From a virus, in the IMG/VR virus record IMGVR_UViG_3300029305_001279: 64,000 bases of DNA. One strand, 5' to 3'. The number at the start of each line of letters is the position of its first letter. Position 1 is the stretch's first letter. Positions 53-26,181 of this stretch are shown here, piece by piece. A program made the translations under genes and the position numbers. The notes under the pieces were generated by a model, which was not told the DNA's origin, ran no database searches, and worked only from the letters and a program-made list of their open reading frames with translations.

Positions 53-538
53 ATGTGCATGAAGCATCACTATGACCGCAACCGCAAGGCCGTCCAGCAG
101 GCTCTGGACCGCCGGAAGGAAGACGCCCACGAAGCCGCCCAGGATGCCGCCGGACAGGCGCTCCGTGACGAACTTCGCAAAAGCAACCAGAGACGTGAGG
201 CCGCAAAAGTGGCCGCAGAGGACGCTGTGTGCCGCCATGTAGCCCAGGTGGTCAAGGAGACCAACCGGGAGAGCGCGCAGCGGATGGCCCAGCTCCGCCA
301 GGAACATTATCGCCGTGACCGCAAGGCCCTGGAATCCAAGCAGCTGAAGATCTGCCTGCTCCTGACCTTCTTCCCCCTGGTGATGGCAGCTTCCGCAATC
401 CGGCTCCATAATCTGGGTATGGTCAACCTCTGGGTGTCCCTGCCCCTGACCACCCTGGCCTGCACCATCAGCGTGTGGAATTTCGTGGCCTACATCACCC
501 GGAACATGAAGCAGAGGGAGGTGAAACACCATGCCTAA
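53..538 (+). CDS. hypothetical protein with C-terminal hydrophobic segments
   Basis: 161-aa ORF behind SD aaaGGAGAtaataccATG; charged helical N-half, then hydrophobic stretches LLLTFFPLVMAASAI and LPLTTLACTISVWNFVAYI; no family recognised. Confidence 0.5.
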   Translation: MCMKHHYDRNRKAVQQALDRRKEDAHEAAQDAAGQALRDELRKSNQRREAAKVAAEDAVCRHVAQVVKETNRESAQRMAQLRQEHYRRDRKALESKQLKICLLLTFFPLVMAASAIRLHNLGMVNLWVSLPLTTLACTISVWNFVAYITRNMKQREVKHHA

Positions 539-767
539 ATACACCCCCATCTACAGGTGCCTGTTGTGCAACGACGCGGTACAAATCGCAGCTCCGGTGG
601 AAGCTAACCGAGAAGATGTGGAAAAGCTGCTGGAAAAAATCATCAGTCGGCAGGTTCATTTTGAATCCCACCCGGATCTGTGCCAGGTCCCTTCCCGCAT
701 CCAGCATAATTGCAAATTAGGAAGCCTGGGCGTCGCCCACTTCGCCGGCTTCCTGAAAGTTGAGTAA
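531..767 (+). CDS. hypothetical small protein
   Basis: 78-aa ORF overlapping the upstream stop by 8 nt (coupled translation); CxxC in YRCLLCND; no family recognised. Confidence 0.4.
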   Translation: MPKYTPIYRCLLCNDAVQIAAPVEANREDVEKLLEKIISRQVHFESHPDLCQVPSRIQHNCKLGSLGVAHFAGFLKVE

Positions 768-785
768 CAGAAAAGGAGAATTACC

Positions 786-1406
786 ATGAGTATCGAAATG
801 CACACCCTCAAAGCCCGCATCACCTTCCAGGAGGAGGTCCTGGGCACCGCATCCAACAATCCCAACATCCACAGCGAATTCATTGCCAGCAAGGCTGAGG
901 ACGCCAAGAGCATGGAGGAGGAAGTGGCAGCCATCGGCGCTGAAGGCGTGGTCGAAAAGGCCATGACCGTCTTCCCCCGGAACGGATCCGGCAACCCCAT
1001 CCTGTGGGACTACCAGATCAAAGGCTTCTTCAAGGACTCCGCCGCCGCTCTGAAGAAGGTCCCCGGCACCAAGGCCAGCAAGGTCAAGGCATTCAAAAAG
1101 GAGATCGACGGCCTTCTGTTCATCAGTCCCCGCATGATTCCCTTGAACATTCCCTCTTCTCTGGGACACTGCGAACGTCCCCTCCGGGCATCCACTCCCA
1201 TGGGTGAGCGTGTCGCCCTGGCCAACAGCGAAACCGCACCCGCCGGTACCACCATCGAGATTGAGATCCAGTGTCTGACCAAAGATATGCTGGAGCTGGC
1301 CCGGGAGTGTCTGGACTACGGCATCCTCCGCGGCATCGGCCAGTGGCGGAACAGTGGCAAGGGCCGCTTCACGTGGGAGGAGATCGAGGAGAAGAAGAAA
1401 GCCTGA
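786..1406 (+). CDS. hypothetical protein with C-terminal glycine-rich loop
   Basis: 206-aa ORF, SD aaaGGAGAattaccATG; no family recognised; near the C-terminus G-I-G-QWRNS-G-K-G-RF resembles the GhGxxxxxGhG loop of RAMP/Cas6-type proteins (weak signature only). Confidence 0.55.
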   Translation: MSIEMHTLKARITFQEEVLGTASNNPNIHSEFIASKAEDAKSMEEEVAAIGAEGVVEKAMTVFPRNGSGNPILWDYQIKGFFKDSAAALKKVPGTKASKVKAFKKEIDGLLFISPRMIPLNIPSSLGHCERPLRASTPMGERVALANSETAPAGTTIEIEIQCLTKDMLELARECLDYGILRGIGQWRNSGKGRFTWEEIEEKKKA

Positions 1407-1409
1407 TCC

Positions 1410-2225
1410 GCAATGGCACGGTGAAGCATGGAACCGCCGTGCGTCGCCGCGCCTAGCACGGAGCTGCAACGCTAAGGCGATGAATTGCACAGTAATGGCA
1501 GAGCAAGGAGAGGCGTGTCCTCGACCAGCTATGCGAAGCAACGGCGTGGCAAGCCTGGGAATGGCTACGGCTTGGATCGGCACGGAAGGGCAGCGCACTG
1601 CTGAGCAATGGCATGGGATAGAAACGCATTGATCCGCCACGGCATTGCCCTGAGTTGCAGGGAGATGCAAGGCTATGGCAAGGCAACTCCAGGCCACGAG
1701 TTGCACAGCAAAGGCAGGGCCAAGAAAGGAAAAGCACAGCGCGGCCAAGGCATGGCACCGGAACGCTTCGCAAGGGATATGAGCCGCGAAGCAAAGAATT
1801 GAAAAGCATGGCAATGGCAAGGAAAAGAAATGAGTGGCAACGGCAAGGCGAATAGGTGAGAGGCCATGGTTCGCAAAGGCATGGAGCCGCATGGCACCGA
1901 ATCGCAACCTGCAGCAAAGCAAAGGCATAGCCATGGTAAGCTATGAAATGAGGAGCCAAGGCAGAGTGGGGCAATGATTGGGTCAGCTGATCTTTGCACT
2001 GCAATGGCGTAGAAAGGCGATGAAACGAACGGCAATGGCGTAGGTCTGCTGAGCATAGAACGGCTAAGGCAAAGCTATCCCCGGCGAAGCAAAGGCATGG
2101 CGCCACCATGCACCGTATAGCAACGGCAGGGAACTGCGCAGATGTGCGCGGCACCGCTGCGGCATTGCGACGCGCAACACGGCGAAGGCAAAGCATGGAA
2201 AGGCAAGGATAGGCCACCACAAAGA
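1410..2225 (+). other. purine-rich non-coding tract (candidate long ncRNA or protein-binding motif array)
   Basis: About 815 nt without a credible + strand ORF (only 61-92 aa Arg-rich fragments); T-poor; dense degenerate motifs gcaATGGCa / caAAGGCatgg; ends at an intrinsic terminator; antisense ORFs 717..1934 and 1453..2238 are Cys/Ala/Leu low-complexity shadows. Confidence 0.45.
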
Positions 2226-2256
2226 AGAGCCCCGACAACCCCGAGGCTCTTTTTTG
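2226..2256 (+). terminator. rho-independent terminator
   Basis: Hairpin agagccccg / ccgaggctct followed by TTTTTT. Confidence 0.8.
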
Positions 2257-2270
2257 TGCAATATCCCAAA

Positions 2271-2298
2271 TTGAAACACTGCAAAAATCCAGTATAAT
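2271..2298 (+). promoter_or_regulatory. sigma-70-like promoter (cassette copy A)
   Basis: TTGAAA, 16-nt spacer, TATAAT, directly after the terminator; the leader ...cagcaaaaacacagaaatagaacaggaggaaaacagaATG is shared with copies at 54067 and 55348. Confidence 0.55.
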
Positions 2299-2348
2299 AA
2301 CATTGTAAGAACAGCAAAAACACAGAAATAGAACAGGAGGAAAACAGA

Positions 2349-3992
2349 ATGAAAGTCATCAATGACCGCTGCCCCTTGCAGTCGGAATGTGAGCGGAAGA
2401 AGTGCGAGTTCAAGAACCATGAGCTCGACTGCTCCTACTACCATGCCAACTCCCGGCCCGGTTACGAGATCGCAGACCAGGAAGCGAAGCGCTGGTCCTC
2501 GAACAAGCTGACCTTCGACATGGACGAGGACTGGGACGATGACGAGGATCCGGGCGAAGAGGAAGAGCTGGCACCGAGACCCATCAACGGCCTGATGTGC
2601 AAGCTCCCCATCGATAAGCTGGTCCCCCATCCCGACAACCCCCGGAAGGAACTGGGCGACCTGACCGAGCTGGCCGCATCCATCGAGGCCAAGGGTGTGC
2701 TGCAGAACCTGACCGTCGTGGAAGCAGGCGACGACACCTACCGTATCATCATCGGCCACCGTCGGCACGCTGCTGCCAAGCTGGCAGGACTGACGAAATT
2801 GCCCTGTGTCATCGCCGTCATGACACCCCAGGAGCAGTTCGAGACCATGATGGTAGAGAATGTCCACCGCTCCGATCTGACCACCTACGAGCAGGCAGAA
2901 GGCTTCCAGATGATGCTGGACATGGGCGGCAGCGTTGAGGAGGTCGCCGAAAAGACCGGCTTCTCCGAAACCACCATCCGCCGGAGAGTGAAGCTGCTGG
3001 ATCTGGACAAACAGAAGTTCAAGAAGGCAGAGGAGCGCGGAGCCACCATGGGCGACTACCTGAAGTTGAGCGAGATCCAGGACCCCGAGCGCCGTAACAA
3101 GGTACTGGACACCATCGGAACCGCTAACTTCCACAACAGTCTGAAGGATGCCATTGCGGAAGAAAAATTCCTGGCCCGTATGGAGCGTGTGCGGAACTAC
3201 TTCCGGAACGAGCAGGACTGGTGCCGGGAGAAGACGGATGAAGAGATCGGCTATGGCGAGGGCCAGTATTCCTACCATACCGCCTACGACAAGTTCCATG
3301 CCGAAGATCCCAAGGCCCCGAGCAATGTCGGAAACGTTGATTACATCTGGGCCATCACTGCCCCCAACACCGTCACCATCTACAAGAAGGTCATCAAATC
3401 TGCGGAAAAGGCACCGCTGTCCCCCGAAGGCCAGCGGAAGCAGAAACTCAAGGAAGATCTGGAGGAAATCAAGAACGAGCTGAACCGTATTTCCAAGAAC
3501 CACCGGGAGATGCGTGAAGAGTTCATCCATGACTTCACGGCGGTCCATAACTACGAAATGGATATCCAGGAGTTCGCCGCCATGGCGCTGATCCATCAGT
3601 CAGACGGCTATGTTCACAGAATGGACACAGACCGGCTGGGCAATCTTCTGGGCGTCCAGGTCGACAGCAAGGGCATCATGGACGATGCCGGTATGAAGAA
3701 GGCGCTGTTCAATCGTCCCCAGTACGCACTCCTCTGCACTGCCTATGTGTCTCTGGAAGGCCCCGGCCAGAAGTACAACGACTCCGGCTACTGGATTACG
3801 GATGTCGGCTTCCCTCCCGAGCACAAGAAATCCCCCGCGCTGGATCTGATCTATAAAGGCCTGGAATCCATCGGCTATGAGATGTCCGATGAAGAACTGA
3901 TGATGCAGCGCGGTACCCATCCGCTGTACCAAAAGGCCAAGGAGCTGATCGCTGAGTACAAAAAGGCTCAGGAGGATGCAGGCCATGGCTAA
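2349..3992 (+). CDS. ParB/Srx N-terminal domain protein
   Basis: 547 aa; LPIDKLVPHPDNPRKE...GVLQNLTVV...YRIIIGHRRHAAAKLAGL matches the ParB-like nuclease/CTPase N-domain; Cys-rich first 30 aa and an acidic linker. Confidence 0.8.
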   Translation: MKVINDRCPLQSECERKKCEFKNHELDCSYYHANSRPGYEIADQEAKRWSSNKLTFDMDEDWDDDEDPGEEEELAPRPINGLMCKLPIDKLVPHPDNPRKELGDLTELAASIEAKGVLQNLTVVEAGDDTYRIIIGHRRHAAAKLAGLTKLPCVIAVMTPQEQFETMMVENVHRSDLTTYEQAEGFQMMLDMGGSVEEVAEKTGFSETTIRRRVKLLDLDKQKFKKAEERGATMGDYLKLSEIQDPERRNKVLDTIGTANFHNSLKDAIAEEKFLARMERVRNYFRNEQDWCREKTDEEIGYGEGQYSYHTAYDKFHAEDPKAPSNVGNVDYIWAITAPNTVTIYKKVIKSAEKAPLSPEGQRKQKLKEDLEEIKNELNRISKNHREMREEFIHDFTAVHNYEMDIQEFAAMALIHQSDGYVHRMDTDRLGNLLGVQVDSKGIMDDAGMKKALFNRPQYALLCTAYVSLEGPGQKYNDSGYWITDVGFPPEHKKSPALDLIYKGLESIGYEMSDEELMMQRGTHPLYQKAKELIAEYKKAQEDAGHG

Positions 3993-13986: not shown

Positions 13987-15889
13987 ATGAAATTAGGAAG
14001 CCTTTTTGATGGGTCGGGAGGATTCCCGCTCGCAGGAGAGCTTTGCGGCATAGAGCCGCGCTGGGCGGCTGAGATAGAGCCGTACCCAATCGCCGTTACA
14101 AGGGGGCGTTTCCCCTAACTTGGTACACCTTGGAAGTGTGACCGAGATCAACGGCGCAGAAATAGAAGCAGTAGATGTAATCACCTTTGGATCGCCGTGC
14201 CAGGATCTTTCCGTGGCTGGAAAGCGGGCAGGGCTGAAGCACTCAGCCAACGGCGACGATGAAACCACACGCAGCGGCCTATTCATGGAAGCCGTGCGAA
14301 TCATCAAGGAAATGAGGAAAGCCACAAATGGAAAATATCCGAAGTATGCAATATGGGAAAATGTCATGGGCGCCTTCAGCTCAAATGCCGGCGACGACTT
14401 CCGTGTCGTCCTCGAAGAACTCGTCAAAATCTGCGAACCGGAAGCACCCCCGATACCTTCGCCTGGTAAAGCGGGATGGCCATACGCCGACTGCATCATG
14501 GGAAACGGATTCAGCCTTGCTTACCGTGTTTTCGATGCGCAATACTGGCCCGGCACCCCTCAACGCAGAAAACGTATCTACCTTGTCCTCGATCTTACAG
14601 GCGAATGTGCCGAAAAAATACTATTTGAGCGCGAAGGCTTGCGAGGGCATTCTGAGAAGAGCCGAGCGCCGTGGGAAGGAGCTGCCGGAGATCCTCAAGG
14701 CCGCTCTGGAACAGACGATCCAGAGAGCAGCATAATAGCCATCGATCAACAAGGCGGCAAAGGCAACGCAAATTATGCCGTCGATGTGATGCCTACACTT
14801 TGCAGCGATAGCCATGGCACCCCTCATGCGGTAGCATACGGTGTAACGAGCAAAGGTAATGGAGATAGCTTCATCTCAGAGGAACGGCATACCGCTTTAT
14901 CTACAGGCGGAGGCCAACCGGGGCAGGGATATCCATGTGTGATGCAGCCCATAGCCTTCACCCAGAACCAGAGGGACGAACTGAGAGATCTGGGAGACAA
15001 AGCCGGAACCATACAAGCGGCGCCAGGAACGCATCAGCAGACCTTCATCATCGATAACATCGGAGGTCAAGCGGAATATGGAGTAGAAAGCACCGTAAAC
15101 GGCACCCTTCGAGCTGGTGGGCTGGGCGCTATTTGCTACGATGCCAGAGGAAATGGTGATGGTAAAACCGTCAATACGATCACCGGTGACCACAACAACC
15201 GCATAACAGATTATAGCTCTGTGGTGGTGTATAACGGTGAGAACATCACAAATCCAACGAACAAAGCAAACCCACAACCCGGTGACCCATGCCACACACT
15301 TGGAACCGATAGCAGGAATCACCTCGTATACTGCCTCCAAGGAAACGTCATTGACAGAGCCAATTCTGCCAGATGCAATGGCGAAGGATGGAAAGAGGAT
15401 GTGTGCTACACCCTGAATACCATCGACCGACCGGCTGTATCATACTCAACCGATGTCGGATTCTTTAATACCTGCGAGGATGTGTCCCCGACCATGCTTG
15501 CAAGGATGTACAAAGACCCTCACCTCGTATGCTACGAGGAAGAACCGCAATACATAGTCCGTCGCCTCACCCCTACCGAGTGCGCCAGACTGCAAGGCTT
15601 CCCAGACCGATGGGGAGACATACCACACAAAGAAAACCTCACGGACGAAGAGTACAGCTTCTGGCTGAACGTCCGAAACACCCACGCAGCCATCAACGGC
15701 AGAACTACGAAAGAATACACCAAGGATCAAATCCTCAAATGGTACAATAAACTTCACTCAGACAGTTCCGAATACAAAATGTGGGGCAATGGGATCGCCT
15801 TACCAAATGCCTTGTATGTCATGCAGGGCATAGCGGAGGCAATTAACCATGGTCGAGATCGATACGGAGAAGTGAAACAGAAAGGATAG
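13987..15889 (+). CDS. DNA (cytosine-5) methyltransferase requiring a +1 frameshift at 14113-14118
   Basis: Frame a 13987-14118 gives motif I LFDGSGGF and ends CCC TAA; the +1 frame gives NLVHLGSVTEING..FGSPCQDLS (IV), IWENV (VI), QRRKRIYLV (VIII), a long TRD, RRLTPTECARLQGFPDRW (IX), GNGIALPNA (X). Confidence 0.75.
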
Positions 15890-15898
15890 CAGGACAGC

Positions 15899-16969
15899 AT
15901 GATTAAATTGCTTATTGGCGGTTCCCCATGCACATTCTGGAGCATCGCCCAGAAGAATGGACGGGAAACCGAAGCAGAGGGCATGGGTTGGGAGCTGTTT
16001 AAGAACTACCTCATTGCCAAGGAAAAATTCCAGCCGGACTTTTTCCTTTACGAAAACAACAAATCGGCAGCACAAGCCATCAAGGATCAGATATCACATG
16101 AGCTGGGTGTGGATCTCATGCACATCAATAGTGCGCTGGTATCCGCGCAGAACCGTCAGCGATTCTACGCATTCAACTGGACGGTGGATCAGCCGGAGGA
16201 CCGCGGCATTTCGCTGAACGAAATTCTGGAAGATACACCCGATGAAATAGGCTGCAAAGTTTCCGGAGTCGGATATAGAAACCGCAGAGAGAGCGACGGA
16301 AAGCTGTATAGGCGTTTTGAAACAGACGGCAATCCCAAATCCAACGCTCTGACAACGGTGGACACCGATAGTATGGTTTGCATACCCGCTCACAGCGTCG
16401 CACTCCGCGGACGGGACCACAGATCTGCTTACGAAGTGAGCACCGGCGAAAAAGCGAATGCTCTCACGGGAAGTACCCAGCAACGGCGCATTATAAGACC
16501 TGCTGGAAAATTGCAAGACGGTATCACTTACGAGGTACATAATGGCCTTATTGAAATAAAAGGGAAAGAGTACCCCATCAATTTACCGGACGGCAGCTAT
16601 GTGATGCGGCATCTGACCCCGATAGAGTGCGAACGCCTACAGACGCTCCCTGATGGCTACACCGCCTGTGTGAGCAAAACCCAGCGACGGAAGGCTTTGG
16701 GCAACGGTTGGACGGCGGAGGTGATTATTCACATCCTGAACGGCGCTCTGGCAAACGTTCCTCGGGACGAGGAGATTGTGGTGCTGTCCATGTATGACGG
16801 TATCGCTACCGGTCGGTATTGCTTGGACAAGATGGGCTTCACCAACGTGCGCTATTACGCCTACGAGATCGATAAGTACGCAATGCAAGTCGCATTATCG
16901 AATTACCCGGACATCATCCATTGCGGTGATGCGTTCGATCTGAGAAACCCGGATTGGACAATTAACTAA
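15899..16969 (+). CDS. circularly permuted C5 DNA methyltransferase (motifs IV-X then I-III)
   Basis: 356 aa; N-terminus LLIGGSPCTFWS (IV), FLYENN (VI), SAQNRQRFY (VIII), RHLTPIECERLQTLPDGY (IX), LGNGWTAEV (X), then VLSMYDGIATGRYCL (I), YAYEID (II), HCGDAFDL (III) at the C-terminus. Confidence 0.7.
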   Translation: MIKLLIGGSPCTFWSIAQKNGRETEAEGMGWELFKNYLIAKEKFQPDFFLYENNKSAAQAIKDQISHELGVDLMHINSALVSAQNRQRFYAFNWTVDQPEDRGISLNEILEDTPDEIGCKVSGVGYRNRRESDGKLYRRFETDGNPKSNALTTVDTDSMVCIPAHSVALRGRDHRSAYEVSTGEKANALTGSTQQRRIIRPAGKLQDGITYEVHNGLIEIKGKEYPINLPDGSYVMRHLTPIECERLQTLPDGYTACVSKTQRRKALGNGWTAEVIIHILNGALANVPRDEEIVVLSMYDGIATGRYCLDKMGFTNVRYYAYEIDKYAMQVALSNYPDIIHCGDAFDLRNPDWTIN

Positions 16970-17059: not shown

Positions 17060-17133
17060 GGATCAGCGGGGTGTGGCACCCATCTGCACAAAAGCTGCAG
17101 AAAGAGTCGGTTCGATTCCGGTCTGTTCCACCA
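17060..17133 (+). tRNA. aberrant tRNA-like gene (anticodon loop CAAAAGC, no U33)
   Basis: 74 nt cloverleaf: acceptor ggatcag/ctgttcc (one T-T mismatch), short D arm gggt-gtggc-accc, 6-bp anticodon stem tctgca/tgcaga, T arm gtcgg-TTCGATT-ccggt, encoded CCA; formal anticodon AAA with A33. Confidence 0.5.
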
Positions 17134-17508
17134 TGCGTGTGGCTCACGCACCCTTGAAACGATACATAGGGGAAAAGGGCTCTCTGTTTCTGTGGTGCAG
17201 CACGCAACAGAGGTGGCGACATAAATTATTAGATTGGCTGGCTCCGGCTTATAAAATCGAACGGATGCGACCGATGCACCGGCGCAGGGCTGAAAAGTTC
17301 CGTGATATTCCTTGGTATGGCTCTGGAATCGCAGAGCGAGGCGAAAAGGCCACCTGCAACGCGAGCGAAAGAGGCCGGCGGGTGGATAGAAGGATAATTG
17401 TGGAGTGGTACCGGCGGAGCTGAGGTTCCAGGCCGGTGTGTAGTTCACAGTGGTTACAGACCATACCGGGGATATGGTGAAAAGGAATACCCAGGAAAAG
17501 GAGAATAT

Positions 17509-17585
17509 GCCGCTGTAGCTGCAGCGGTTAGAGCAACTGACTTGTAATCAGTAGGTCGTGGGTTCAAATCCCACCAGCGGCTCCA
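17509..17585 (+). tRNA. tRNA-Thr (UGU)
   Basis: 77 nt; acceptor gccgctg/cagcggc, anticodon arm actga-CTTGTAA-tcagt, T arm gtggg-TTCAAAT-cccac, encoded CCA. Confidence 0.9.
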
Positions 17586-17687
17586 CCGGGCATAGCCCGG
17601 CATAATGTCCTCCTTTTTCTGTTTTCTGACGGCCCGGAAAGACGGGAAGACCTGGGGCGATGGTTATCTATCGCCCTGGGCACCTAC

Positions 17688-17761
17688 GTCGGCGTAGCTC
17701 AATGGTAGAGCACCTGCCTTCCAAGCAGGCAACGCGGGTTCGATTCCCGTCACCGGCTCCA
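17688..17761 (+). tRNA. tRNA-Gly (UCC)
   Basis: 74 nt; D arm gctc-aatggta-gagc, anticodon arm cctgc-CTTCCAA-gcagg, 4-nt variable loop, T arm gcggg-TTCGATT-cccgt, CCA; one C-A mismatch in the acceptor stem. Confidence 0.85.
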
Positions 17762-17854
17762 CTTGCTTTCATTCTTTTTCTCCTCTCCTAATGGCGGCTC
17801 GGAAAGACGAGAAGTGCCGTGCAGGCCTGGTAAACCTGCACGGTGCGCCATTAC

Positions 17855-17930
17855 GCTCATGTAACTCAGCTGGTAGAGTAACGGATTTTTAATCCGTGAG
17901 TCGCGGGTTCGATTCCCTCCATGGGCACCA
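17855..17930 (+). tRNA. tRNA-Lys (UUU)
   Basis: 76 nt; acceptor gctcatg/catgggc, D arm actc-agctggta-gagt, anticodon arm acgga-TTTTTAA-tccgt, T loop TTCGATT, CCA. Confidence 0.85.
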
Positions 17931-18022: not shown

Positions 18023-19606
18023 ATGATTATTCGTCCGCAGCCGAAGCAGGAGGAATTCCTGAGCAATCCGGCAGACATCATCATTTATGGTGGAGCCGCG
18101 GGCGGTGGTTAGCAAGGTAAGACATACGCCCTCCTCTTGGAAGAGTGCCGCAACAGCGACAACCCACGATTCAACTCGGTAATCTTCCGTAGAAATAACA
18201 CACAGATCTTCACGAACGGCGGTCTCTGGGATTCCGGCATGGCTCTGCTCCCTCTGATCGGCGCACAGCCGAAGAAAACCCCGAAACCGTCCTTCATCTT
18301 CCCATCCGGCGCAAAGGTAACATTCGACCACCTGGAACGTTACAGCGACTGCCTCTCTTACCAGGGCTCGCAGATCGTCTTCATCGGCTTTGACGAGCTG
18401 ACCCACTTCGACGAGGATGTCTTCTGGTATATGCTGTCCCGTAACCGTTCGGACTCCGGTATTCCCGGCTATGTCCGAGCTACCACCAACCCTGACCCTG
18501 ACTCATGGGTCCGCACATTCATTGACTGGTGGATTGGCCCTGATGGTCTGGCTATCCCGGAGCGCAGCGGCAAGATCCGCTGGATGATCCGAATCAACGG
18601 CGAGGTGGTCTGGGGCAATTCCCGGATGGAGCTGCTGCAGCGGCAGTTTGATGGTGACATCACCGCCGTGGACAAGAGCCACACATCGACGGATGAACTG
18701 TTCGTTCCGGATCCAAAGGACAGCAAGATCCAGATCATCGTCAAGCCCGGTGTGGAGGGCACACTGTACATAGCTACTCAGACAAAGCAGTTCTTCCAAT
18801 GGTCAGGCGGTGAGTACCGGGAGCTGATGCCCCCGAAGTCCGTGACCTTCATCTGCTCCACATTGCAGGACAATGCCATCCTGATGAAGAATGACCCGAG
18901 CTACCTGGCCAACCTGAAGGCCCTGCCCCTCGTTGAACAGGAGCGGCTGCTGGGCGGCAACTGGAACATCCGTCCTGCTGCTGGCCTTTACTTCCCTCGT
19001 GACAAGGCGAAGCTCATTGACGAGATACCGGATGACCTGGTGCGTGTTGTCCGCGCATGGGACCTTGCAGGCACAGAGGACAAGAAGAACAACAACCCCG
19101 AGGACGGCCCCGCATACACGGCCGGTGTGCTGATCGGCAAGCGCAAGAGCGGAAAGCTGGTTGTCCTCGACGTTATCAATAAGCGGCTCAATGCCAGCGA
19201 TGTGCGAAACCTGGTATTGACCACCGCACGAGCTGACAAGGCAGCATATAAATCCAAATACAGAATCCGCATGAACCAGGATCCCGGCCAGGCCGGTGTG
19301 GATCAGAAGGAACAGTACATAAAGCTGCTGTCCGGCTTCAGCGTCAACATCGAGCGAGAGTCCGGCAGCAAGGAAGTCCGCGCGGAGCCGCTGTCTGCTC
19401 AGTGGATCAACGGCAATGTGGAAGTCCTGAACAGACCATGGACATCAGAGTACCTGGCCCAGCTGGACGGCTTCCCAGACCGGAAGTTCAAGGATATGGC
19501 CGATGCCAGCAACACAGGCTTCCTGGAGCTGGAGAAGTTCAACACCGTATCCGTACCGAAGGACAACAGTGCCCTGGCCAAGCAGAGCTACTGGTTCAAG
19601 AATTAA
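18023..19606 (+). CDS. terL: terminase large subunit with an in-frame TAG in the Walker A loop
   Basis: ATG 18023 behind AGGGGG; MIIRPQPKQEEFLSNPADIIIYGGAAGGG-TAG(18110)-QGKTYALLLE..., same frame as track ORF 18137..19606 (IVFIGFDELTHF Walker B, nuclease C-domain); no other stop. Confidence 0.75.
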
Positions 19607-25705: not shown

Positions 25706-26017
25706 ATGAAAAAGATTCTCGCACTCCTGCTGGCCGTGCTGCTGATCCTGGCCATGGTCATCCCCGTATTCGCTGTCACCCCCGATCTGGATGTCCCCGA
25801 CATGCCTGAGATCCCCGACATCTCCGATGACGTGGAAATCGAGCTGCCCGATGGCATCTTTGACGACTACATCCCCGACATCGACATCGACATTGAACTG
25901 CCCGAAGATCCTACTGAACCTCCCGCAGAACCTCCCATCGAGCCGCCCTATTTTAATTATTGCGAATTCCTGAAAGGCTGGTTCGAGTGGTGGATGCACG
26001 TCATCCGGTGCCGCTGA
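25706..26017 (+). CDS. secreted acidic Pro/Asp-rich protein
   Basis: 103 aa; signal peptide MKKILALLLAVLLILAMVIPVFA, then PDLDVPDMPEIPDISDD...IDIDIELPEDPTEPPAEPPIEPP. Confidence 0.5.
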   Translation: MKKILALLLAVLLILAMVIPVFAVTPDLDVPDMPEIPDISDDVEIELPDGIFDDYIPDIDIDIELPEDPTEPPAEPPIEPPYFNYCEFLKGWFEWWMHVIRCR

Positions 26018-26018
26018 T

Positions 26019-26132
26019 ATGGTTAAGGACTGCACCGAATGTGCAAAAAATGCACAATGCCTTGAACGCATCAAAGAGGGGACTGTGGTGTACTGCGGCA
26101 GCTCACTCTGCAAACCTACCCCGAAAGCATAA
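26019..26132 (+). CDS. possible 37-aa Cys-rich peptide
   Basis: MVKDCTECAKNAQCLERIKEGTVVYCGSSLCKPTPKA; starts 1 nt after upstream stop; followed by 10-bp hairpin aagcccctcc/ggaggggctt. Confidence 0.25.
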   Translation: MVKDCTECAKNAQCLERIKEGTVVYCGSSLCKPTPKA

Positions 26133-26181
26133 CCCCAAGCCCCTCCTGTCCGGAGGGGCTTCACCAAAAGGAGGAAACATC

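What the first reader, a model, noticed from the sequence alone, without database searches (positions are those of the whole stretch)
1410..2256. About 0.8-kb purine-rich non-coding tract saturated with A[AT]GGC motifs between a glycine-loop protein gene and the ParB-like gene
No terminator separates gene 786..1406 from this tract. The tract runs about 815 nt to a strong intrinsic terminator (2226-2256). The + strand is T-poor and has stops in all frames. The long antisense ORFs are Cys/Ala/Leu-rich artefacts. By eye I count about 14 AAGGC and about 12 ATGGC pentamers, usually in contexts such as gcAAAGGCAtgg, gcAATGGCa and gcATGGCAccg. Longer words also recur: gcaaaggcatgg at about 1874 and 2089, gcatggcaccg at about 1750 and 1888, ctgctgagca at about 1597 and 2046, ttgcacag at about 1484 and 1700. 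There is no fixed period. This architecture recalls protein-titrating RNAs (CsrB/RsmZ-type sponges) or a DNA-level array of binding sites for the ParB-like protein encoded immediately downstream. I know of no described element matching it.
Basis: seen in the sequence. Interest (0 to 1): 0.7.

Follow-up and report, generated by a model that had tools for sequence, protein, structure and literature searches.

The report
Phage VIPR guide-RNA repeat array
The 0.8-kb purine-rich tract is a long array of 5-nucleotide repeats lying next to a small Cas7-like protein gene, which matches the phage "VIPR" RNA-guided DNA-silencing system described in 2026 preprints; it is real and notable, but of a kind already reported.

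Summary
The claim of "no fixed period" is wrong. Bases 1404-2232 form one coherent lattice of about 161 units with consensus N-G-(C/A)-N-N and G at position 2 in 92-94% of units. The Fourier period is 5.15 nt. The lattice is broken into about 23 cassettes of 4-12 units, each closed by one 6-nt unit (NGCnAN) and reopened by GG(C/A)AN.

The upstream 206-aa gene folds as a minimal Cas7/Csm3-like RAMP. All 80 viral relatives, and at least 33 of 42 relatives in bacterial genome assemblies, carry the same lattice directly beside the gene on the same strand. The ParB-like gene is a neighbour in only 1 of 86 loci.

This pairing matches VIPR (Vipr protein plus GGY/NN pentanucleotide vrRNAs; bioRxiv 10.64898/2026.04.26.720920 and .720927). 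In VIPR the protein polymerises one protomer per repeat, and the variable bases guide binding to the DNA of competing phages.

This clade differs from the studied SUSP1 system in four ways. G1 is relaxed, and the G1-contact residues are replaced. There are no structured tails. The cassettes are short, abut one another and are swapped whole between phages. There is no conserved accessory gene.

I found no targets. Verdict: a new member of a known kind.

The parts
786..1406 (+). vipr-like gene: 206-aa minimal RAMP with a Cas7/Csm3-like fold (single RRM, beta-hairpin thumb, C-terminal G-loop GIGQWRNSGKGRF)
   Evidence: AF2 model pLDDT 77, pTM 0.72. The top 50 Foldseek PDB hits are all Cas7-family subunits, E 1e-7 to 4e-5. 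Profile against PDB: type VII Cas7 at E 9e-7. hhalign against the SUSP1 Vipr family is full length, E 8e-5.
1404..2232 (+). vrRNA-like array: 161 units (137 pentamers and 24 hexamers), consensus N-G-(C/A)-N-N, mean period 5.15 nt
1404..1414 (+). array leader TGATC CGCAAT, overlapping the vipr stop codon; CCGCAATGGCA also opens the array in L010, L082 and L083
1415..1475 (+). cassette 1 (12 units, 61 nt)
1476..1496 (+). cassette 2 (4 units, 21 nt)
1497..1542 (+). cassette 3 (9 units, 46 nt)
1543..1568 (+). cassette 4 (5 units, 26 nt)
1569..1609 (+). cassette 5 (8 units, 41 nt); found only in the window among the fetched loci
1610..1640 (+). cassette 6 (6 units, 31 nt); found only in the window among the fetched loci
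1641..1676 (+). cassette 7 (7 units, 36 nt); it is the first cassette after the short leader in L083-L087
1677..1712 (+). cassette 8 (7 units, 36 nt); shared with L083-L085
1713..1748 (+). cassette 9 (7 units, 36 nt); shared with L083-L085
1749..1774 (+). cassette 10 (5 units, 26 nt)
1775..1815 (+). cassette 11 (8 units, 41 nt)
1816..1841 (+). cassette 12 (5 units, 26 nt)
1842..1877 (+). cassette 13 (7 units, 36 nt)
1878..1923 (+). cassette 14 (9 units, 46 nt)
1924..1959 (+). cassette 15 (7 units, 36 nt)
1960..2005 (+). cassette 16 (9 units, 46 nt)
2006..2036 (+). cassette 17 (6 units, 31 nt)
2037..2067 (+). cassette 18 (6 units, 31 nt); shared with L082-L085
2068..2093 (+). cassette 19 (5 units, 26 nt); shared with L082-L085
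2094..2124 (+). cassette 20 (6 units, 31 nt)
2125..2160 (+). cassette 21 (7 units, 36 nt); found only in the window among the fetched loci
2161..2186 (+). cassette 22 (5 units, 26 nt); found only in the window among the fetched loci
2187..2217 (+). cassette 23 (6 units, 31 nt)
2225..2257 (+). intrinsic terminator: an 11-bp stem (AAGAGCCCCGA / TCGGGGCTCTT read on the complement) followed by a T-run, ending the vipr-array transcript
   Evidence: The sequence itself; the hairpin is reported at 2225-2251; it is the only robust helix in the fold.

Best explanation
Gene 786..1406 plus tract 1404..2232 is a phage-borne VIPR (Viral Interference Programmable Repeat) module. The gene encodes a Vipr-type minimal RAMP. 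The tract is its guide-RNA (vrRNA) array, transcribed with the gene and ended by the terminator at 2225-2257.

The proposed mechanism is taken by analogy with the characterised SUSP1 system and is inferred, not shown here. One Vipr protomer binds each pentanucleotide unit. It sequesters the invariant G and the neighbouring C/A between the thumb and the G-loop (Trp187/Arg188) and exposes the variable bases. The resulting helical ribonucleoprotein filament reads double-stranded DNA through a gapped, non-contiguous pairing code and represses genes of competing phages or prophages.

In this clade the array is tail-less. About 23 short guide cassettes (mostly 5-9 units) abut one another. Each starts with GG(C/A)AN and ends with a 6-nt unit NGCnAN, and that extra base once per cassette of about 6 units gives the non-integer 5.15-nt period. 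The cassettes behave as exchangeable modules, like spacers.

Shown here: the lattice, the RAMP fold, the obligate gene-array linkage, the cassette modularity, and the kept and lost contact residues. Inferred: transcription and processing, protein binding, DNA targeting, and the biological role.
For: (1) Lattice. The spectral peak is at 5.15 nt with power 41.7. Position 2 is G in 92% of units. (2) The protein has a Cas7/Csm3-like RAMP fold. BFVD holds a 59%-identical relative annotated 'Cas system-associated RAMP superfamily protein'. (3) Linkage. All 80 IMG/VR loci carry a same-strand lattice (100-740 nt, period 5.10-5.20) directly upstream or downstream of the gene. So do 33 of 42 genome/MAG loci under strict criteria, with several more weaker ones. 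(4) The published definition of VIPR is a ~20-kDa phage RAMP flanked by intergenic GGY/NN pentanucleotide repeats, with the variants NNNGG/YNNNG/NNNNG and 'staggered' tail-less arrays. The structural paper reports one protomer per repeat, G2 stacked on W178, and Y3 contacted by R179. (5) I located the SUSP1 Vipr gene myself and confirmed it as PDB 36pp 'SUSP1 Vipr protein'. It aligns with this family over its full length (hhalign E 8e-5), and the two share the motif G-[VI]-G-x-W-R...G-R-F. W187 is invariant and R188 nearly invariant. (6) The residues that bind G1 in SUSP1 (H17, D177) are G20 and Q186 here. Matching this, G1 is only 31% G in internal units. (7) Guide-like evolution. Between cassettes, entropy is 1.83-1.95 bits at positions 1, 4 and 5 against 0.63 at G2. 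The window and L082 (Vipr 99% identical) share 13 of 25 identical segmentation blocks, and the other blocks are mostly replaced, inserted or deleted as whole units, a few differing by one to three bases. Cassettes recur in a different order in L083 and L086. (8) The RNA folds no better than shuffles (z -1.04), as expected for a protein-coated single strand.
Against: Sequence homology to the experimentally studied Vipr is weak: BLASTP detects only the G-loop (E 0.007), and hhalign probability is 61%. By HMM-to-sequence search this family scores better against type VII Cas7 (E 9e-7) than against SUSP1 Vipr, which is not reported at E<=10. There is no structured 3' tail or ribozyme between guides, and no conserved accessory (vap) gene. 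Position 3 is A in 24-34% of units, although the SUSP1 pocket excludes purines. No DNA target was found under any skip rule. Within cassette families, positions 1, 3, 4 and 5 change at similar rates, so the set of code positions is undetermined. There are no expression data.
Confidence: 0.85

Rival explanations
1. Anti-CRISPR decoy. The phage Cas7-like protein, with or without the repeat RNA, assembles aberrant or competing complexes that poison the host's type I, III or IV effector, as RNA anti-CRISPRs and Cas-mimicking Acr proteins do, rather than guiding DNA recognition.
For: The protein is structurally closest to Csm3 and to type VII and type IV Cas7, and its G-loop region matches type VII Cas7 and Csm4 by sequence. 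It is phage-borne with no other cas genes. No DNA targets were found.
Against: The RNA has a 5-nt unit, not the 6-nt register of Cas7-crRNA filaments, and it does not resemble any CRISPR repeat (Rfam negative). Variable positions are hypervariable and cassettes are swapped modularly, which fits guides rather than mimics of a fixed host repeat. The same architecture was shown experimentally to be an RNA-guided repressor in SUSP1.
Confidence: 0.06
2. Protein-titrating RNA sponge. The transcript sequesters a host or phage RNA-binding protein through many A[AT]GGC sites, with no guide function.
For: The short motif is highly reiterated, and the tract is probably transcribed as a long non-coding RNA ending at a terminator.
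Against: CsrB/RsmZ-type sponges present GGA in hairpin loops at irregular spacing. Here the motif sits on a strict lattice that stays phase-coherent over 830 nt and has no excess structure. Non-motif positions are hypervariable and organised in heritable cassettes, which a sponge does not need. The obligate partner is a RAMP that polymerises on such repeats in the characterised homologous system.
Confidence: 0.04
3. DNA-level site array. The tract is a centromere-like or origin-like array bound as double-stranded DNA by the ParB-like protein encoded downstream.
For: A ParB_N+HTH protein is encoded 90 nt downstream. A 5.15-bp period is about half a B-DNA turn.
Against: A ParB-like gene accompanies the module in 1 of 86 loci, and no other neighbour is conserved. 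The ParB-like gene has its own promoter (TTGAAA-16-TATAAT, 2271-2298) after the terminator. The array is always on the coding strand of the RAMP gene, either 5' or 3' of it and inside the same transcription unit. It contains no parS-like inverted repeats.
Confidence: 0.03
4. The tract is coding: the long antisense ORFs (1453..2238, 261 aa; 717..1934, 405 aa) encode real Cys/Ala/Leu-rich proteins.
For: The minus strand is stop-free over more than 80% of the tract in 62% of 61 arrays.
Against: There is no period-3 signal; the only spectral peaks are 5.15 nt and its harmonic at 2.57 nt. The openness follows from the lattice: with G fixed at position 2 and few T's, minus-strand stops can only arise from CTA at positions 3-5 or TTA at positions 4-5-1, about 0.05 per unit by my calculation from the frequencies. 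Cassette swaps of 5n+1 nt shift the reading frame. All flanking genes are on the + strand.
Confidence: 0.01

Closest known systems
VIPR type II system of Escherichia phage SUSP1 (Vipr plus vrRNA; bioRxiv 10.64898/2026.04.26.720920 and 10.64898/2026.04.26.720927; PDB 36pp)
   Same: Both are phage-borne. Both have a ~200-aa single-RRM RAMP with a thumb and a G-loop motif G-[VI]-G-x-W-R..G-R-F. Both have same-strand intergenic arrays of pentanucleotide repeats with an invariant G and hypervariable bases, placed 5' and/or 3' of the gene. Neither is associated with cas genes or a CRISPR array.
   Different: SUSP1 has strict GGT-NN units, 11-14 per vrRNA, each with a leader and a hairpin/pseudoknot tail, and four separate vrRNAs in total. 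Here the unit is N-G-(C/A)-N-N, with G1 kept only in the first unit of each cassette. There are no tails. About 23 abutting cassettes of 4-12 units are each offset by +1 nt, making one 829-nt lattice. The G1-contact residues H17 and D177 are replaced by G20 and Q186. SUSP1 has vap1 next to vipr; here no neighbour is conserved. Sequence identity is detectable only around the G-loop.
Class 1 CRISPR Cas7 backbone filaments (Csm3, Cmr4, Csf2, type VII Cas7) on crRNA
   Same: The protein fold is the same and gives the best structural matches. In the homologous VIPR system one protomer binds per RNA repeat segment, and the thumb interrupts base stacking.
   Different: Cas7 uses a 6-nt register on a spacer that is not recognised by sequence, and it needs a repeat-derived handle, Cas5/Cas6 and other subunits. 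Here the register is 5 nt with a base-specific G in every unit. It is a solo gene with no repeat-spacer array.
TRAP-trp leader RNA (Bacillus): 11 (G/U)AG triplets separated by 2-3 nt, wrapped around an 11-mer ring (from my own knowledge)
   Same: Both are single-stranded RNAs recognised through a short motif reiterated every 5-6 nt, one motif per protein subunit, without secondary structure.
   Different: The protein fold is unrelated. TRAP uses 11 repeats, not about 160. In TRAP the spacer bases carry no information. TRAP works by attenuation, not nucleic-acid guiding.
CsrB/RsmZ-type sponge RNAs
   Same: Both are long non-coding RNAs with many copies of a short G-rich protein-binding motif.
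   Different: Sponge motifs (GGA) sit in hairpin loops at irregular spacing and titrate CsrA. Here there is no structure, a strict lattice, no Rfam match and a RAMP partner.

Membership tests
VIPR (Vipr protein + vrRNA) | Vipr is a small (~20 kDa) RAMP with a single RRM core, a glycine-rich loop and a thumb, and no second RRM | tested here: met
   The protein is 206 aa. The AF2 model shows a beta-alpha-beta-beta-alpha-beta core, a beta-hairpin at 127-151 and a G-loop at 183-193. The top 50 Foldseek PDB hits are all Cas7-family subunits. Its C-terminal 54 residues match type VII Cas7 at E 9e-7.
VIPR (Vipr protein + vrRNA) | Sequence homology to an experimentally characterised Vipr (SUSP1, PDB 36pp) | tested here: inconclusive
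   BLASTP aligns only 39 residues around the G-loop (38% identity, E 0.007). hhalign with the narrow profile gives E 0.0015 and probability 17%. The broad profile A3 against the SUSP1 family A2 aligns 183 columns, E 8e-5, probability 61%. An HMM search of PDB with A3 does not list 36pp at E<=10.
VIPR (Vipr protein + vrRNA) | G-loop residues that hold the repeat: Trp stacking on G2 (W178) and Arg on Y3 (R179); His/Asp binding G1 (H17, D177) | tested here: inconclusive
   W187 is invariant and R188 nearly invariant in 49 diverse members, and they align with W178 and R179. H17 and D177 align with G20 and Q186, so the G1 contacts are not kept. This agrees with the relaxed G1 in the array.
VIPR (Vipr protein + vrRNA) | Same-strand intergenic tandem pentanucleotide repeats GGY/NN (at least 4 units) or a related consensus (NNNGG, YNNNG, NNNNG) flanking vipr | tested here: met
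   The array has 161 units of N-G-(C/A)-N-N. Such an array is present next to the gene in 80 of 80 viral loci and at least 33 of 42 genome loci. The criterion is quoted.
VIPR (Vipr protein + vrRNA) | Conserved scaffold positions alternate with hypervariable guide positions | tested here: met
   Entropy between 362 cassette families is 1.93, 0.63, 1.52, 1.83 and 1.95 bits for positions 1-5. Three positions rather than two are fully variable.
VIPR (Vipr protein + vrRNA) | Each vrRNA is capped by an invariable structured 3' tail (type II) or separated by hammerhead ribozymes (some type I and V systems) | tested here: not met
   Nothing lies between cassettes except one extra nucleotide. There is no excess folding and no ribozyme or other Rfam match. 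The preprint also lists tail-less 'staggered arrays' (fig. S18; the legend is). This locus probably corresponds to those, but I could not see the figure.
VIPR (Vipr protein + vrRNA) | Minimal locus outside any CRISPR-Cas context, mostly in phages or prophages | tested here: met
   The window is a tailed-phage genome with terminase, portal, tape measure and replication protein. It has no CRISPR array and no second lattice.
VIPR (Vipr protein + vrRNA) | An adjacent accessory gene (vap1-6) | tested here: not met
   The most frequent + strand neighbour family occurs in 28 of 87 loci. The ParB-like gene occurs in 1 of 86. The preprint states that some Vipr genes stand alone.
VIPR (Vipr protein + vrRNA) | vrRNAs are expressed, processed and co-purify with Vipr, with one protomer per repeat | not testable with these tools
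   This needs RNA-seq, pull-down or cryo-EM.
VIPR (Vipr protein + vrRNA) | Variable dinucleotides match DNA of competing phages under the 1-nt skip rule | tested here: inconclusive
   Local scans of about 1.5-2 Mb with skips 0-3 and an NN or NNN code gave real counts close to shuffled counts. Exact IMG/VR and GTDB scans gave 0 hits for 22 specified bases and 2 chance-like hits for 18. One 20/20 match to a cassette from other loci had the skip at codon position 1 and is about what chance predicts. Power is low because exact matching was required and the database was small.
CRISPR-Cas class 1 effector (type III/IV/VII) | A repeat-spacer array, a 6-nt Cas7 register, and accompanying Cas5/Cas10/Cas11/Cas6 genes | tested here: not met
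   The register is 5.15 nt. There are no CRISPR repeats. Neighbours vary and no partner gene is conserved; I did not screen the neighbours against cas gene models.
CsrB/RsmZ-type sponge RNA | Multiple GGA motifs presented in stem-loops; a match to Rfam Csr/Rsm families | tested here: not met
   There is no Rfam match even at E<=10, and the fold z-score is -1.04.
ParB-parS partition site | Cognate ParB gene linked to the site; palindromic or iterated double-stranded DNA boxes | tested here: not met
   A ParB-like neighbour occurs in 1 of 86 loci. The repeats are direct and strand-asymmetric.

The most novel reading that the evidence does not exclude
This very abundant gut-phage clade (at least 8000 protein clusters at 90% identity; 1930 clusters at 50% identity) may run a VIPR variant with different rules from the studied type II system. 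The differences would be: a G1-independent N-G-M-N-N unit in which three bases per unit (positions 4, 5 and 1) may carry information; guides of only about 5-9 units concatenated without tails into multiplex arrays of 20 or more guides; and whole-cassette exchange between phages at the conserved GCnAN|GG junction, a spacer-like turnover that needs no Cas1. A further speculative version is that the +1 nucleotide about every six units matches the six-subunit turn of the Vipr filament, so that the 830-nt RNA is coated as one continuous superfilament of about 160 protomers rather than being cut into guides.
Probability: 0.3. Interest if true: 0.65.

Novelty: new member of a known kind. Interest (0 to 1): 0.55.

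Why it matters
VIPR was first described in 2026 as an RNA-guided DNA-recognition system proposed to predate CRISPR, and only Proteobacterial examples have been studied in detail. This locus shows the same two-part module in a phage of gut Clostridia. The family is very large: at least 8000 protein clusters at 90% identity, and 1930 representative proteins at 50% identity matched at E<=0.001. At 161 units, its array is the longest among the viral loci I compared.

Three features give concrete, testable predictions about how the repeat code and guide biogenesis vary. G1 recognition is relaxed, with matching loss of the G1-binding residues. The cassettes are tail-less and staggered by +1 nt. Cassettes are shuffled whole between phages.

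Practically, thousands of "hypothetical protein plus odd intergenic tract" loci in gut viromes could be annotated with a simple 5.15-nt periodicity test. Their cassettes may record which phages compete in the gut.

Tried and rejected
- **Known RNA families.** Rfam gave only tRNAs elsewhere at gathering thresholds, and only noise at E<=10 over 1300-2400.
- **Tandem Repeats Finder.** It reports nothing in the tract. The units are too degenerate and the period is not an integer.
- **A 31-nt higher-order repeat.** Lag 31 (identity 0.452) is no better than lags 5, 26, 36 or 67. The apparent 31-nt spacing is just the most common cassette length.
- **A half-helical-turn (10.3 bp) double-stranded DNA protein array.** I considered this because of the non-integer period. 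I dropped it once segmentation showed integer 5-nt units plus one extra base per cassette and the partner proved to be a RAMP.
- **ParB linkage.** Rejected.
- **A conserved accessory gene.** None found.
- **Pfam, PHROGs, NCBIfam and PADLOC on the 206-aa protein.** No hits.
- **Target prediction on local sequence.** I tested an NN code with skips 0-3 and an NNN code (positions 4, 5 and 1') with skips 0-2 against 1.5-2 Mb of related phage and prophage DNA and against the 64-kb window. Real counts stayed close to shuffled-unit controls; the largest excess (NN code, skip 2: 17 against 8 and 29 against 15) was not reproduced in the scan of the window (59 against 54).
- **Exact gapped-pattern scans of IMG/VR and GTDB genomes.** Results were negative or at chance level.
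- **Decoding positions 4, 5 and 1' as codons.** Stops are only mildly depleted (81 observed against 108 expected), which is not evidence that cassettes derive from coding sequence.
- **Substitution rates within cassette families.** They do not separate positions 1, 3, 4 and 5 (0.07-0.09 changes per column), so they cannot define the code.
Full report
**1. The observation**

- Region 1410-2256 holds exactly 14 AAGGC and 12 ATGGC.
- A[AT]GGC occurs 26 times against 6.7 +/- 2.3 in 1000 dinucleotide-preserving shuffles. The longer word GCAA[AT]GGC occurs 9 times against 0.4 (z 13).
- The four recurring longer words are each present twice, within one base of the stated positions.
- The + strand is T-poor (13% T) and closed in all three frames.
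- No terminator lies between gene 786..1406 and the tract. A strong hairpin plus T-run at 2225-2257 ends it.

One statement is wrong: there is a period.
- Distances between A-N-GGC motifs take only values near multiples of 5.15.
- The base-composition spectrum has a single sharp peak at 5.15 nt. Its power is 41.7, against a median of 0.67 for 816-nt windows across the 64 kb, measured at 5.167 nt.
- Self-identity is 0.40-0.46 at every lag k x 5.15 out to more than 320 nt, and about 0.21 elsewhere.

**2. Anatomy**

A Viterbi segmentation into 5- or 6-nt units parses 1404-2232 into 161 units: 137 pentamers and 24 hexamers. The consensus is N-G-(C/A)-N-N.
- Position 2 is G in 92% of units.
- Position 3 is C in 68% and A in 24%.
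- Position 4 is A in 57%.

The hexamers are not random insertions. Across 61 non-identical arrays, each hexamer is N-G(0.99)-C(0.90)-n-A(0.82)-N and is followed by a unit G(0.94)-G(0.99)-(C/A)-A-N. The array is therefore punctuated into cassettes of the form [GG(C/A)AN][NG(C/A)NN]x[NGCnAN].

In the window there are 23 full cassettes of 4-12 units (21-61 nt). Across all arrays the mode is 6 units and the mean is 6.2. One extra base per cassette of about 6.2 units gives (6.2 x 5 + 1)/6.2 = 5.16 nt, which accounts for the non-integer period. There is no 31-nt higher-order repeat. Tandem Repeats Finder and Rfam see nothing here. The RNA folds no better than shuffles (z -1.04), and the terminator is the only robust helix.

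**3. The neighbour that matters**

The 206-aa protein has no Pfam, PHROG, NCBIfam or PADLOC match, but it belongs to a very large family.
- At least 8000 clusters at 90% identity.
- 1930 representatives of 50%-identity clusters at E<=0.001.

An AlphaFold2 model (pLDDT 77, pTM 0.72) hits only Cas7-family backbone subunits among its top 50 PDB matches. These are type VII Cas7, Csm3, Cmr4 and Csf2, with E 1e-7 to 4e-5 and TM-scores of 0.43-0.57. A family profile matches type VII Cas7 (E 9e-7) and Csm4 through the C-terminal helix and glycine-rich loop. BFVD holds a 59%-identical phage protein already labelled 'Cas system-associated RAMP superfamily protein', as well as archaeal-virus relatives.

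**4. Linkage of gene and array**
- All 80 IMG/VR loci encoding a relative (57-75% identity) carry the same lattice on the same strand, directly abutting the gene. In most it lies just upstream, ending 20-50 nt before the ATG. In the rest it starts at or just after the stop codon, as in the window. The period is 5.10-5.20 nt and G2 is 84-100%.
- In an independent set of 42 loci from bacterial genomes and MAGs (43-60% identity), 33 pass strict criteria and several more have shorter adjacent arrays. These are mostly gut Clostridia such as Ruminococcaceae, Oscillospiraceae, Subdoligranulum and Gemmiger.
- In the upstream arrangement the array sits between the preceding ORF's stop codon and the RAMP gene's ribosome-binding site, with no terminator on the coding strand. 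In both layouts the array and the gene therefore share a transcription unit.
- The ParB-like gene (2349..3992) accompanies the module in only 1 of 86 loci and has its own near-consensus promoter after the terminator. No other neighbour is conserved.
- The window is a tailed-phage genome with no CRISPR array and no second lattice.

**5. What it is**

A literature search turned up two 2026 bioRxiv preprints from one group that describe this pairing. They name it VIPR, for Viral Interference Programmable Repeat.
- **Components.** VIPR systems consist of a ~20-kDa phage-encoded minimal RAMP (Vipr) and vrRNAs built of GGY/NN pentanucleotide tandem repeats.
- **Assembly.** One Vipr protomer binds each repeat. 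It sequesters GGY and exposes NN.
- **Target recognition.** The filament recognises double-stranded DNA through a gapped code in which two bases pair and one target base is skipped. It represses competing phages, satellites or prophages.
- **Variants.** The authors list seven types. Variant repeat consensuses are NNNGG, YNNNG and NNNNG. Variant array layouts include 'staggered arrays' in which one vrRNA ends where the next starts with a 1-nt offset. That layout was not verified experimentally.

I located the reference system myself in Escherichia phage SUSP1 (KT454805.2, 27.5-29.5 kb). It has a 195-aa protein flanked by four runs of 11-14 GGTNN units, each followed by a hairpin tail. The protein is deposited as PDB 36pp, 'SUSP1 Vipr protein'.

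**6. Membership tests**

Features met:
- the fold, size and single RRM;
- the phage context, without cas genes or a CRISPR array;
- the adjacent same-strand pentamer array;
- a conserved scaffold position alternating with hypervariable positions.

Sequence homology to SUSP1 Vipr is weak but consistent.
- BLASTP finds only the G-loop region.
- The narrow family profile also aligns only that region.
- A broad family profile against a SUSP1-family profile aligns over the full length, with E 8e-5 and probability 61%.

The G-loop motif is shared: G-[VI]-G-x-W-R...G-R-F. The Trp that stacks on G2 and the Arg that contacts Y3 in the SUSP1 structure (W178, R179) correspond to W187, which is invariant, and R188, which is nearly invariant. 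The two residues that read G1 (H17, D177) are G20 and Q186 here. In step with that, G1 is G in only 31% of internal units, but in 94% of the first unit of each cassette. This protein-RNA co-variation is the strongest internal evidence that the protein reads this lattice.

Features not met:
- there is no structured 3' tail or ribozyme between guides;
- there is no conserved vap gene;
- position 3 tolerates A.

I therefore file this as a VIPR system of a tail-less, staggered-array variety. It is distant from type II. I cannot assign it to one of the seven published types because the supplementary data are not available to me.

**7. The cassettes evolve like guides**

Between 362 cassette families, entropy is 1.93, 0.63, 1.52, 1.83 and 1.95 bits at positions 1-5. 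A phage whose Vipr is 99% identical (L082) shares 13 of 25 segmentation blocks exactly with the window, including the short leader and the 3' end. Most of the other blocks are replaced, inserted or deleted as whole units, and a few differ by only one to three bases. Individual cassettes also recur, sometimes with one or two substitutions, at other positions in arrays whose Vipr is 89-95% identical (L083, L086). Cassettes are thus the units of inheritance, presumably exchanged by recombination at the conserved GCnAN|GG junctions. This fits guides and does not fit a sponge or a structural RNA.

**8. Mechanism: what is shown and what is inferred**

Shown here:
- the lattice;
- the RAMP fold;
- the obligate cis-linkage and shared transcription unit;
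- the kept and lost contact residues matching the repeat consensus;
- cassette modularity;
- the lack of RNA secondary structure.

Inferred from the SUSP1 work:
- the transcript is coated by the 206-aa protein at one protomer per unit;
- G2 and position 3 are buried while the variable bases are exposed;
- the ribonucleoprotein binds matching DNA in rival phages and silences it.

Unknown:
- whether the RNA is cut at the junctions, and by what;
- whether two or three bases per unit pair with the target;
- the skip rule;
- the targets.

**9. Target search: negative, with low power**

I scanned 1.5-2 Mb of related phage and prophage DNA and the window itself. I used an NN code (positions 4-5) with skips 0-3 and an NNN code (positions 4, 5 and 1') with skips 0-2. 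No rule gave a reproducible excess over shuffled-unit controls.

Exact gapped-pattern scans also gave nothing convincing.
- The 12-unit cassette (11 dinucleotides, 22 specified bases) had no hit in IMG/VR or in 185,579 species genomes.
- A 9-unit cassette had two hits in AT-rich contigs, which look like chance matches.
- A widely shared 10-unit cassette from other loci had one 20/20 match in an unrelated phage gene. The skipped base fell at codon position 1, and the hit is about what chance predicts.

These tests required exact matches or a tiny database, so they do not weigh much against the model.

**10. Rivals**

I considered four alternatives and rate all of them unlikely, for the reasons given in the rival explanations: an anti-CRISPR decoy (0.06), a sponge RNA (0.04), a ParB/double-stranded DNA site array (0.03) and antisense coding (0.01). 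The long antisense ORFs follow from the lattice itself. With G fixed at position 2 and few T's, minus-strand stops can arise at only two phases of the unit. That comes to about 0.05 per unit by my calculation from the frequencies, so 62% of arrays are open on the minus strand over more than 80% of their length. There is no period-3 signal.

**11. Verdict**

The element is not unprecedented: it is a member of the VIPR systems described in preprints of April-June 2026.

What this locus adds:
- an example from a gut Clostridia phage, in a very abundant clade;
- a 161-unit array, the longest among the 80 viral loci compared, although two related loci fetched later (L082 and L232) carry slightly longer arrays of about 180 units;
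- a relaxed N-G-(C/A)-N-N unit, with matching loss of the G1-binding residues;
- tail-less cassettes staggered by +1 nt and exchanged whole between phages.

Novelty: new member of a known kind. Confidence in the identification: 0.85. Interest: 0.55.

Noticed in passing
window 2271-2349: The ParB-like gene has its own near-consensus promoter (TTGAAA-16-TATAAT, 11 of 12) directly after the array terminator. Its 5' UTR contains an A-rich 22-nt tandem repeat (AGAACAGCAAAAAAACAGAAAT x1.9, 2308-2349). The protein starts with a Cys-rich segment (CPLQSECERKKCEFKNHELDC) ahead of the ParB_N and HTH domains.
   Followed up: partly
window 27283-27368: An intergenic cluster of nested tandem repeats lies between ORFs 25960..27072 and 27381..28310: a 31-nt unit x2.1 at 97% identity, plus 12-nt and 10-nt sub-repeats built on CAAGTAA/AACAAGCGA. 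It could be a set of regulatory or origin-like iterons. I did not study it.
   Followed up: no
window 17060-17930: A cluster of tRNA genes (Thr-TGT, Gly-TCC, Lys-TTT, plus an ARAGORN-only 'Phe-AAA' call that Rfam does not support) sits just upstream of the large terminase gene (18137..19606).
   Followed up: no
window 14120-16969 and 28467-31280: There are two adjacent DNA methyltransferase-like genes (589 and 356 aa). A 937-aa protein has a C-terminal part that matches methyltransferase, RNA-ligase and head-protease PHROGs; it may be a composite or polyvalent protein.
   Followed up: no
window 531-767: The 78-aa ORF immediately upstream of the vipr-like gene (phrog_16725, unknown function; CxxC...HxC pattern) overlaps the preceding ORF's end and looks co-transcribed. 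It is not conserved next to vipr in other loci, so it is probably not an accessory gene.
   Followed up: partly
L081 (KT454805.2) 27499-29511, minus strand: This is the reference SUSP1 VIPR locus as I located it. Vipr is ALH47069 (28474-29061) and the second gene is ALH47068 (28031-28471). One GGTNN run lies upstream and three downstream. Each run is preceded by a conserved leader (…AAGAGTCTTCTAAGAGGGTTTTTAAGTGATG or a related sequence) and followed by a GGGTAGTTAGTCTCAGCTACATTAAAATGAGACT-type tail. All are annotated only as hypothetical or intergenic.
   Followed up: yes
L035 about 1194-1748: One array contains a cassette made of a perfectly reiterated 15-nt triple unit (GGAAA GGCCA AGCAT x3.7). 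This suggests recent internal duplication within an array.
   Followed up: no
L111 / L132 (IMG/VR contigs 3300007519_000037 and 3300027976_000197): A 10-unit cassette shared by L008, L058 and L061 matches 20 of 20 specified bases (1-nt-skip pattern) inside an ORF of two related 35%-GC phage contigs. The skipped base falls at codon position 1, not at the wobble position, and one such hit is about what chance predicts among 120 seed matches.
   Followed up: partly
L241, L245, L249 (genome/MAG loci): A few distant relatives of the RAMP gene (43-51% identity) show no clear lattice with my position weight matrix. In L242 the array lies about 680 nt from the gene. These may use a different repeat consensus or layout.
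   Followed up: no
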